Shown piece by piece: positions 60,720-63,129 of a stretch of 64,000 bases of DNA; the first letter of the stretch is position 1, and every line of letters begins with the position of its first letter. The position numbers and the translations under genes were made by a program. The notes beneath the pieces are model-generated. The model was not told the origin of the DNA. It did no database searches and saw only the letters and a program-made list of their open reading frames with translations. The stretch comes from Chiloscyllium plagiosum (lineage: Eukaryota): NCBI RefSeq assembly GCF_004010195.1, contig NC_057751.1, positions 19,492,535 to 19,556,534 on the forward strand, given 5' to 3'.

Positions 60720-60876
60720 AGAACACACAACAATCTAAGCCTGCTGATCCCAGTATGGATCTAGATTCCATCTTGGGGCAATTGTTTGCTGCAGAGTAAT
60801 AGCTAGCCACTGTGTCTGAACTCCTGAACTGATGCCGACCACCAAAAGGTTCTGAATGACCCCGATTCTGATCTAC
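60720..60876 (-). pseudogene. NAB2: Degenerate NAB2 exon 6 homologue
   Basis: ctctgcaacag| acceptor and |gtatgt donor. 157 nt, not 3n. The phase-1 frame stops after 23 codons. WLAITLQQTI (compare human WSRHILQQTL) is in another frame, and MDEGLRL is missing. Confidence 0.6.
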
Positions 60877-61124
60877 CTGTTGCAGAGAGTGGGGCAGTTG
60901 ACACTCGCCCCTAAAGCTGGCAAGGAAAGGGAAGCGTTTTGCAGACAAACTATCTGATTCCCGTAGGTAAGCTCTGAGGGATAACTAGGTAAATTTAGCC
61001 TCACCAGTCTTAGAAAAAGACACCCGAACCAGACCCTGAGAGATGTGTCTAGGACACAGTGGGATAGCAAAACAGCAGTAGCAGCTGGCCCAGAGCATGA
61101 AGACAGAGTCAAACCTCTGAAGGA

Positions 61125-61252
61125 CAAAGTGAAGAGTGCAGATGCTGGAGATCAGAGACGACAGTGCGATACTGGAAAAGCAGTCGGTCAGGCAGCATCT
61201 GAGGAACAGGAGAATCGACTGGCTGTGCTTTTCCAGCAGCACACTCTCGACT
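61125..61252. mobile_element. Internally deleted fold-back Penelope-derived element
   Basis: Family sequence with a short inverted arm. Imperfect TSD tcaa...tctgaagg(a/g)caa at about 61109-61127 and 61252-61270. Confidence 0.75.
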
Positions 61253-61608
61253 CAAGGTTCTGAAGGGCAAGATCAGCACAAGCATGATTCAGTCTTTCTT
61301 TACACAGAGGTGACAACCTCTGGAATTAGAAGGGTTTTTGAGGCCAGGAAACCTGATCCCACTCCCATTCGCATATCGGAGTGCCAAAAATGAAAGGCTG
61401 AAGGGTCAACTCGATCACAACTGATGTTCTGACAGAAAGGACTAGTCAATGGAATCACAGTGAGTATCATTTCTCCTCCTGACCAGTAAATACAGTGCAT
61501 GTTAACTTTATTATTTATCCACTGTTTTATTTTAATAAATAATAATAACCCTCCCCTACCCACCCAAAAGGCAATGAAAATCTAGAGTAGAACAAATGTT
61601 GTACATAC

Positions 61609-61762
61609 CTTCCATTTGTCCAGAGAGACTATCCCTGAATAGGCTGCCAGTATCCTCCTCTTTGTTGCATCTGGACCCTGCTGAAGCTTTCCTTTGGTGT
61701 TTGATCAATTCAGTTTGACTCTGTATCAGCATTGCGTGCTTCAAGTCAGATTCTAGCTGGTG
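61609..61762 (-). CDS. NAB2: NAB2-like exon 5 homologue (HQLESDLKHAML...EEDTGSLFRDSLSGQME)
   Basis: ttttccaaatag| acceptor, aag|gtatgt donor, only frame 0 open, phase 0-1. The end aligns with human EEDSASLSGESLDGHLQ. Confidence 0.85.
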
Positions 61763-61801
61763 CTATTTGGAAAATAAAAAGCTGAATAATTAAAAGTGTT
61801 A

Positions 61802-61928
61802 CTGGCATTGTACCATACCAGTGCTGGTACTGTATCACCTCAACAATGGCACTGTGCTGCCTGAGCCCTGGTACTGTACCACCTAGCCCCTGGAACTACC
61901 ACCTCAACCTGGCACTGTATCAGCCCAG
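61802..61928. repeat. Degenerate ~20-bp tandem repeat (ctggtactgtaccacct...)
   Basis: About 6 imperfect units just upstream (minus strand) of the NAB2-like exon 5 acceptor. Confidence 0.6.
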
Positions 61929-62252
61929 TTTGGAACAATTGTAACATCCCTACTACTGGACCAGAGATCCAGGTTCAAGTCCCACTTCAAGATTTAATGG
62001 AAGGTATGCCAACAGAATGACTAGCAATCTGTAAACCCTTCCAACACACTTACAACAGATAGTAAGAGCAGAAGTTTCAGAACCGTGTAGAAACTGCAAC
62101 ACTATAGCCTCCCCATGTTAAAAGACTCCACACACAAGTTTTTGTCATGAGCATTCTGATGGACTTTGAGACACACACCACCCAGTTCTGGCAATTGTAC
62201 CAACCCAGGCTGGCACAGTACTCCAATACGTAAACCCAAAGACTGGACATAC

Positions 62253-62304
62253 CTCAAGTTTCATATTCTTCACAGTGGGACCATGAACTTCATCGGAGTT
62301 TAAT
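62253..62304 (-). CDS. NAB2: NAB2-like exon 4 homologue (RLNSDEVHGPTVKNMKLE)
   Basis: ttttccctccag| acceptor, gag|gtatgt donor, 52 nt. Aligns with human RLHPEELGGPPLKKLKQE. Confidence 0.88.
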
Positions 62305-63019
62305 CTGGAGGGAAAATAATGATTTAAAAGATTATTTGAAGATTCCAAAGAAACTAGACTCTCATGAATGAATAACTTTGTTTTAAATTTGTCTTCCCCA
62401 ATCATAGAATCAGTCAGTCTTGGAATTTTAAAAACGAAGTAATTTAGCACATTATACATGGGCTTATTGAAGGAGAGCTATTTCCTTAGTCTGCATTCAA
62501 TTTTTTAAAAAACGTCTATTTCAAATATTTGTCCACATCCATTTTAATGTCATGTCTGAACGATCCTCTGTGTACAGATCTGTATTCTAAACATTCTATT
62601 AATGATAATCTTAAAATTATATTCACTAGTTACAGACTCACTAACTAGTTGAAATTGTGTTTCTTCCCCAGTTTATCATATCCCCTTCCAACGTTCAACA
62701 GCTCCCCTCTTTCCTTTGTTTGTTCCTAGCCACATACGCACACTTTCCAGCAGGGGTCAGTGTGTACTTATTAGGATCTGATTTCCAATTGAAAAGTCCG
62801 AACTCCCTCAAGAATCGACATCAACTGACTCGGGAAATACAGAGATTACATTTAGGGTCTGCTAGACAAGATCAGAGGCTTCGTTCGCAACAATGTCATA
62901 ATAACACTTAGAGGGCCACAGAAAAATTCTAGGTTGAAATAAATCAAAGGATTTGGAATCAACAAAAGCCTAGCTGCTCTGTGCACCCTGGTAAGGGTGG
63001 GGAACCTGCTCTGTCTTAC

Positions 63020-63129
63020 CGTGCTTGCCTCTGAGCCACCAGTCGAGCCAGTGAAAGAAAATCGACTCTCCCGATCAGTAAGTTGCTATCCACCCTGCAA
63101 AACGGAGCGGTCGCCTCATTGCTGGTCAA
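63020..63129 (-). CDS. NAB2: NAB2-like exon 3 homologue, NCD2 end (LTSNEATAPFCRVDSNLLIGRVDFLSLARLVAQRQAR)
   Basis: ctctttccag| acceptor, cg|gtaaga donor. Aligns with human LTINEAAAQFCMRDNTLLLRRVELFSLSRQVARE, about 8 codons shorter. Confidence 0.85.

What the first reader, a model, noticed from the sequence alone, without database searches (positions are those of the whole stretch)
60720..63129. NAB2 orthologue that appears to be eroding or has lost its C-terminal repression exon
Seen: exons 3-5 are open with strong splice sites and correct phases, and the psi-K-x-E SUMO-type motif is kept (MKLE versus human LKQE). However, the normally conserved NCD2 helix is heavily substituted (LTSNEATAPFCRVDSNLLIGRVDFLSLARLVAQ versus LTINEAAAQFCMRDNTLLLRRVELFSLSRQVAR) and about 8 codons shorter. 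The exon-6 homologue is 157 nt, hits TAG after 23 codons, keeps only an out-of-frame W..LQQT and lacks MDEGLRL. Known: NAB2 is an EGR corepressor whose C-terminal region binds CHD4/NuRD and is alternatively spliced in mammals. Inference: either a unitary pseudogene in the making or a lineage-specific NAB2 without the CHD4-interacting region. Both are surprising beside a well-conserved STAT6 in a slowly evolving lineage.
Basis: partly seen in the sequence, partly recalled or inferred. Interest (0 to 1): 0.7.

Follow-up and report, generated by a model that had tools for sequence, protein, structure and literature searches.

The report
Shark NAB2 losing its repression domains
In this carpet shark the gene for the co-repressor NAB2 is still spliced and open and keeps its partner-binding domain, but its repression domain has decayed and its tail exons are broken, so it likely binds without repressing while two intact sister genes likely do the repressing.

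Summary
Exon 2 lies about 5 kb beyond the window and is open. Exons 3-4-5 are spliced in sequencing runs. The RefSeq model (NAB2-like, 374/392 aa) joins exon 5 to a frameshifted exon 7 at 57062. The 60876 'exon 6' is not significant; the clear remnant is at 58248, and insertions may have split it from 60876. NCD1 (EGR-binding) keeps 56 of 58 family-invariant residues; NCD2 keeps 24 of 44. Four other carpet sharks and three rays show the same asymmetry. A sawshark keeps NCD2 (41/44), so erosion likely happened more than once. The genome holds an intact NAB1 and a conserved third paralogue ('NAB3', my label), found in sharks, rays and chimaera but in no bony vertebrate listed. Best reading: NAB2 under relaxed selection, reduced to a likely non-repressing EGR binder. 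Main rival: slow pseudogenisation; NCD1 itself evolves 7 times faster than NAB3's. STAT6 synteny suggests X-linkage. No dN/dS or functional data. This scan noted the same theme before in a skate (e1-9802801).

The parts
63130..64000 (-). 3' end of intron 2. It leads to NAB2 exon 2, which lies outside the window at G000:C42:19561945-19561172 (ATG, intact NCD1/SAM, linker, degenerate first part of NCD2; 774 nt, open)
63020..63129 (-). exon 3, degenerate second part of NCD2 with an internal 24-nt in-frame deletion
62253..62304 (-). exon 4 (52 nt), keeps MKLE, a SUMO-type motif (motif label recalled)
61609..61762 (-). exon 5 (154 nt); its donor is spliced to sequence outside 60300-63300
   Evidence: (X6 record 13)
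59994..60212 (.). interspersed repeat between the two putative exon-6 pieces
   Evidence: up to 39 matches in the fetched DNA
58611..59850 (-). LINE-like repeat fragment (CR1-type label recalled) between the two putative exon-6 pieces
   Evidence: 224-aa ORF; up to 29 matches
58168..58254 (-). remnant of the 3' half of exon 6 (DR-LRLAKVVSYNWQGKLTPC), preceded by an in-frame stop
56954..57062 (-). exon 7: stop after EAESGEYLKGN; the rest of the ancestral tail continues in another frame and ends in stops at the VKxE position; AATAAA at 56954-56959
   Evidence: both frames match consecutive parts of the sawshark tail, scores 30 and 40, null max 36 of 2430; RefSeq model
3866..14854 (+). DNA-binding-domain exons of the convergent neighbour STAT6 (synteny marker)

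Best explanation
This is the shark's spliced, open-frame NAB2 orthologue, in which the EGR-binding NCD1 domain is conserved while NCD2 and the C-terminal tail have decayed, so it likely binds EGR factors and NAB partners without repressing, acting as a weak competitor or buffer. Shown: exon structure, splicing of exons 3-5, the domain-biased conservation, the exon-6 remnant, the exon-7 frameshift, and three NAB paralogues in the genome. Inferred: (1) retention of NAB1 and the third paralogue made NAB2's repression redundant; (2) exon 6 is a phase-preserving cassette already skippable in other vertebrates, so it could decay without closing the frame; (3) NCD1 is still under moderate purifying selection for binding; (4) the net effect is damping of NAB1/NAB3 repression of EGR targets.
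For: Invariant positions kept (control: 29 NAB1, NAB3 and bony NAB2 sequences): NCD1 56/58 vs NCD2 24/44 here; 56/58 vs 22-25/44 in all 5 carpet sharks; 52-53/58 vs 24, 16 and 5/44 in sawfish, stingray and skate; sawshark 57/58 and 41/44. Variable columns among 5 carpet sharks: NCD1 6/83 vs first part of NCD2 29/67, Fisher p=2e-7. Tree length over 8 sharks: NCD1 0.43, linker 1.46, NCD2a 1.53. NCD1 changes are more conservative than NCD2 changes (mean BLOSUM 0.11 vs -0.40, p=0.04). Splice joints in X6 contigs (depth 97 and 135, against intron depth about 9-18) and in X10 RNA reads (1 and 2 reads). Exon-6 skip forms in 19 fetched bony-vertebrate proteins against 91 with it (many of the 19 are near-copies from one cluster). 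Three NAB loci, each on a contig with a STAT pair. The third paralogue is 78-98% identical in exon 2 across 19 chondrichthyan clusters, and all 19 keep the NCD2 core and the DEGLR motif. NCD1 binds the EGR R1 domain (PMC2132876, PMC3084842, passages). Nab1 and Nab2 are partially redundant (PMC2235890, passages).
Against: NCD1 is itself relaxed: tree length 0.43 vs 0.06 for NAB3, and two otherwise invariant residues changed (N to H, C to S). Models of Heterodontus, Scyliorhinus canicula and Carcharodon end right after exon 2. Mustelus and S. torazame diverge in frame within exon 4. The Hypanus model begins inside NCD1. These different lesions look like ongoing loss. No dN/dS was possible, and no protein or expression-level data exist. 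RNA support is thin: X6 is of unrecorded kind, X10 gave 3 junction reads, X11 gave none, and X1 showed no exon coverage. The exon 5 to exon 7 joint was not seen directly. RefSeq models are selected for open frames. That NCD1-only NAB proteins antagonise repression is recalled, not read.
Confidence: 0.55

Rival explanations
1. Slow pseudogenisation of a redundant ohnologue. The gene contributes little, and NCD1 lags only because of weak residual selection (additive dosage, or avoiding a multimer-poisoning mutant). It will be lost, mirroring the loss of NAB3 in bony vertebrates.
For: All domains run faster than in NAB3 (NCD1 7x, NCD2a about 5x, linker 2x). Lineages carry different lesions. Long carpet-shark stem, 0.42 vs 0.024 in NAB3. 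Few junction reads.
Against: NCD1 kept 52-57 of 58 invariant positions in all 14 elasmobranch sequences scored, including those where NCD2 is nearly gone. Frame open through exons 2-5 in 5 carpet sharks despite 7 gap intervals.
Confidence: 0.3
2. Neofunctionalisation: NCD2 has been remodelled under positive selection for a new partner, perhaps as a co-activator, rather than lost.
For: NCD2a varies more than the disordered linker among carpet sharks (29/67 vs 19/92, p=0.003) while exon-3 NCD2b is steadier (7/37). The two Chiloscyllium species differ at 9/78 NCD2a sites vs 1/96 linker sites. NAB2 can co-activate EGR1 targets (PMC12393881, passages).
Against: Over 8 sharks NCD2a and linker rates are equal. 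Changes include deletion of the conserved core residues and independent large deletions in rays.
Confidence: 0.09
3. NCD1 looks conserved only because its DNA overlaps a regulatory element; the protein is irrelevant.
For: NCD1 is at the 5' end of the gene, and conservation falls towards the 3' end.
Against: NCD1 changes are biased to conservative residues (weak). The linker directly behind it in the same exon is far more variable.
Confidence: 0.04
4. Assembly errors or a missed intact NAB2 copy.
For: 60847-60926 and the 58250 and 57060 regions were not covered by the listed run contigs.
Against: Lesions are shared with other species' assemblies. X6 contigs match exon 3 and 60387-60846 without differences. 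Only 3 NCD1 loci in the genome, from 7 candidates scored, and the other two are NAB1 and NAB3.
Confidence: 0.02

Closest known systems
NAB2 (NGFI-A/EGR-binding protein 2) of bony vertebrates
   Same: Orthologue by tree (NAB2 clade SH-aLRT 99) and by position beside STAT6/STAT2; same exon series; NCD1 75/83 identical to coelacanth.
   Different: NCD2 keeps 24/44 invariant residues, exon 6 is broken and skipped, exon 7 is frameshifted; 374 aa vs about 480-525.
Exon-6-skipped NAB2 isoform of amniotes
   Same: Same exon 5 to exon 7 architecture (e.g. P0012, P0026, P0488).
   Different: There it is an optional isoform with intact NCD2; here it appears obligatory and NCD2 is decayed.
Truncated or dominant-negative NAB forms (recalled; not read)
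   Same: Keep NCD1, lack repression regions.
   Different: Those are splice variants or engineered mutants; here it would be a whole gene fixed in that state. Function untested.
Reciprocal loss of ohnologues after vertebrate genome duplication (general concept, recalled)
   Same: Three NAB-STAT blocks in one genome; chondrichthyans keep NAB1+NAB3, bony vertebrates in the hit lists show NAB1+NAB2.
   Different: Here the loss is incomplete and domain-selective, and appears to have run in parallel in several lineages.

Membership tests
NAB2 orthologue | Groups with bony-vertebrate NAB2 in a tree | tested here: met
   (quick tree, SH-aLRT 99, no bootstrap, 41 rows)
NAB2 orthologue | Adjacent and convergent to STAT6 | tested here: met
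   STAT6 is the best PDB match only narrowly over STAT5 (53 vs 51.6 bits)
NAB co-repressor | Intact NCD1/SAM domain | tested here: met
   143 bits vs 146-151 in intact NABs; 56/58 invariant residues
NAB co-repressor | Conserved NCD2 repression domain | tested here: not met
   65 bits (over the cut-off of 25) vs 166-187 in intact NABs; 24/44 invariant residues
NAB co-repressor | C-terminal CHD4-interacting region (exons 4-7 per PMC11554739) | tested here: not met
   exon 6 broken, exon 7 frameshifted; exons 4-5 remain, 16/61 identical to coelacanth vs 33/60 for a rodent
NAB co-repressor | Binds EGR R1 domain and represses transcription | not testable with these tools
   needs a binding and reporter assay
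Unitary pseudogene | Main reading frame disabled | tested here: not met
   exons 2-5 plus start of exon 7 give 374 open codons
Unitary pseudogene | Uniform neutral divergence across the coding sequence | tested here: not met
   protein level only: NCD1 0.43 vs 1.46-1.53 elsewhere; p=2e-7
Unitary pseudogene | dN/dS about 1 | not testable with these tools
   no orthologous coding DNA available
Elasmobranch X-linked gene | Half depth in males | not tested
   inferred only: STAT2 and STAT6 are X-linked in five species (bioRxiv 10.1101/2025.03.13.642935, section 7) and both appear to lie on this contig (the STAT2 label is inferred)

The most novel reading that the evidence does not exclude
Sharks and rays have repeatedly converted NAB2 into an X-linked, dosage-uncompensated, NCD1-only decoy that antagonises NAB1 and an unrecognised third NAB ohnologue. 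EGR repression would then be tuned differently in males and females, and NAB2/NAB3 would be a reciprocal ohnologue loss caught halfway.
Probability: 0.22. Interest if true: 0.72.

Novelty: new variant of a known kind. Interest (0 to 1): 0.5.

Why it matters
It is a natural, repeated dissection of a developmental co-repressor into its binding and repressing halves, with a graded series from near-intact (sawshark) to almost NCD1-only (skate). That makes it testable what NCD1 does alone and how redundant ohnologues are lost. It also points to a third vertebrate NAB gene that keeps C-terminal motifs seen in lamprey and invertebrate NABs; I found no description of it in the library searched. The gene is already annotated by RefSeq as NAB2-like and no function is shown, which limits the score.

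Tried and rejected
1. The 60876 stretch as exon 6: not recovered by the exon-6 HMM, marginal by PSSM, below null with frameshifts allowed, no match to sawfish exon 6. A split by insertions remains possible: the order fits, and an 8-nt near-repeat (7/8) sits at both break ends. I put this at about 35%. The alternative, that the decayed 5' half lies directly upstream of 58248, also scored nothing.

2. The exon-7 HMM from bony vertebrates was uninformative because my segment set was contaminated with NCD1; exon 7 was instead identified with the sawshark tail.

3. Complex prediction of NCD1 with a shark EGR R1 region gave 'no answer' (0.01, alignment not used); not used as evidence.

4. One search listed no run on record as RNA that holds the stretch. 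X11 laid 0 reads. No read test of 57062-58254 was obtained, so the exon 5-7 joint rests on RefSeq models.

5. The careful tree did not finish; the quick tree was used, and the scorpion row was dropped because it misaligned.

6. I first read the lack of ray NAB2 in the top 120 as possible loss; one search showed that rays have it, more eroded.

7. Searches of the flanks between the exon-6 pieces found only old scattered repeats, not one element spanning the gap.

8. Literature searches for shark or elasmobranch NAB2, a third NAB or NAB paralogons listed nothing on the topic. Searches for the splice isoforms found no primary paper. The library lacks most subscription journals, and the bioRxiv paper's supplements were not seen; they may list NAB2 among X genes.

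Full report
Observation. On the minus strand, exons at 63129-63020, 62304-62253 and 61762-61609 are open with canonical splice ends. The missing 5' part lies about 5 kb beyond the window: a 774-nt open exon 2 at G000:C42:19561945-19561172 with a strong NCD1 match (E=8e-40). The genome-wide NCD2 search found no match on this contig. A protein search with this exon returned an identical RefSeq model, NAB2-like of Chiloscyllium plagiosum, and nine further shark clusters among the 120 listed of 468. The model runs exon 2-3-4-5 and then to an exon at 57062, not to 60876.

Splicing. Four runs were laid on 60300-63300. X6 (kind not recorded) shows joints 62304-63020 and 61762-62253 at depth 97 and 135, exon bins of 60-156 against about 9-18 in most intron bins, and a contig of depth 163 that leaves exon 5's donor for sequence outside the laid stretch. 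X10 (RNA reads, about 2% of the run read) shows the same joints in 1 and 2 reads. X11 gave nothing and X1 only intronic or repeat pieces. The bin 60805-60905 has depth 3.7 and no joint. X6 matches exon 3 and 60387-60846 without differences. The exon 5-7 joint itself was not observed.

Exon 6. A profile from 73 bony-vertebrate exon-6 segments, run over 13,991 six-frame ORFs from the window and 15 fetched loci, hit the two paralogues and then window 58254-58168 (E=0.001). An ungapped profile ranks it first of 427,936 positions. Repeats fill 58611-59850 and 59994-60212, so a split exon is possible but unproven. The sawfish NAB2 still carries a degenerate in-frame exon 6, so the exon was present in the elasmobranch ancestor (inference). 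Skip forms occur in bony vertebrates (19 proteins), which offers a route to losing it without a frameshift.

Exon 7. The sequence at 57062 matches the sawshark tail in two successive frames (scores 30 and 40; null maximum 36 in 2,430 windows). It stops after 11 codons and has stops at the terminal VKxE position. Whale and zebra sharks exit in a different frame. That terminal motif is not universal in bony NAB2. NAB2 has two sumoylation sites and needs sumoylation for repressor activity (PMC12065886, passages); matching them to these motifs is from recall.

Selection, at protein level only. Of columns invariant in 29 control sequences (13 NAB3, 9 NAB1, 7 bony NAB2, one per species, my choice), this protein keeps 56/58 in NCD1 and 24/44 in NCD2. 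Other carpet sharks keep 56 and 22-25; sawfish 52 and 24; stingray 52 and 16; skate 53 and 5; Mustelus 55 and 35; S. torazame 57 and 33; sawshark 57 and 41. Three models that end after exon 2 keep 57, and 19-21 of the 27 exon-2 NCD2 columns. Because the sawshark lies within sharks (recalled phylogeny), erosion in galeomorph sharks and in rays is likely independent. Among five carpet sharks 6/83 NCD1 columns vary against 29/67 in NCD2a (p=2e-7), 19/92 in the linker and 18/64 in exons 4-5. On a fixed 8-species tree NAB2 lengths are 0.43, 1.46 and 1.53 for NCD1, linker and NCD2a, against 0.06, 0.76 and 0.32 for NAB3. So NCD1 is constrained relative to the rest of the gene but clearly relaxed relative to its paralogue. 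Further points against a stable function: truncated models in three galeomorphs, frame divergence in exon 4 in two carcharhiniforms, and a Hypanus model that starts inside NCD1.

Paralogues. The genome has three NCD1 loci, on C7, C33 and C42, and each contig carries two STAT genes, 0.3-0.4, 1.8-2.0 and 0.09-0.3 Mb away. A quick ML tree separates NAB1, NAB2 (shark plus bony) and the C33 gene with SH-aLRT 98-99. The C33 gene, annotated NAB1-like and here called NAB3, returned 19 clusters from sharks, rays and Callorhinchus at 427-565 bits. The best bony-vertebrate hit was a NAB1 at 280 bits (120 listed of 982, lengths 458-2000 only), so absence from bony vertebrates is suggested, not proven. All 19 keep the NCD2 core and DEGLR; a lamprey and several invertebrate NABs share that motif and a coiled-coil-like segment. 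No chimaera NAB2 appeared in any list.

Mechanism. NCD1 binds the EGR R1 domain (PMC2132876 and PMC3084842, passages). NCD2 and the exon 4-7 CID serve repression through CHD4/NuRD (PMC2768752 and PMC11554739, passages). Nab1 and Nab2 are partly redundant in mouse (PMC2235890, passages). I infer that two intact paralogues released NAB2's repression parts from selection while NCD1 was kept for binding, giving a likely non-repressing competitor (0.55). Slow loss of a redundant gene is the main rival (0.30). STAT2 and STAT6 are X-linked in five elasmobranchs that lack global dosage compensation (bioRxiv 10.1101/2025.03.13.642935; passages and sections 6-7 read, supplements not seen; NAB2 is not named in the main text). 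X-linkage here is inferred from synteny. That lead came from an earlier scan note on a skate (e1-9802801), which reached a similar reading; it is not independent evidence.

Verdict. A real, comparative-scale feature: a known gene in a new, domain-stripped state, plus an apparently undescribed third paralogue. Five topic searches found no paper on it, within a library lacking most subscription journals. No functional or codon-level test was possible. New variant of a known kind; interest 0.5.

Noticed in passing
G000:C33:12099512-12120886 and onward (L006, L015-L018): Third NAB paralogue, annotated only as NAB1-like, highly conserved in sharks, rays and chimaera, with C-terminal motifs shared with lamprey and invertebrate NABs; none in the bony-vertebrate hits listed.
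   Followed up: partly
window 61693: All 4 X10 reads here differ from the assembly (Arg to Gly in exon 5); Gly is the residue in related sharks.
   Followed up: partly
window 61846: X1 contig carries a 22-nt insertion in intron 4, in a region of short degenerate repeats.
   Followed up: no
L035:382-1911 (G000:C14, EGR1-like gene): The C-terminus is expanded into about ten or more tandem copies of a roughly 17-residue S/T/P-rich unit.
   Followed up: no
proteins P0506 and P0265 (Hypanus sabinus): NAB2 and NAB3 clusters list the same longest contig length (69,719,156), so the two genes may share the fused X1 chromosome in stingrays.
   Followed up: no
window 63900-64000: Short tandem array of a roughly 60-nt unit at the window end, in intron 2.
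   Followed up: no
L007:871-1800: RefSeq isoform X1 uses an upstream in-frame ATG adding 18 residues; a short first coding exon like that of bony NAB2 was not looked for.
   Followed up: no
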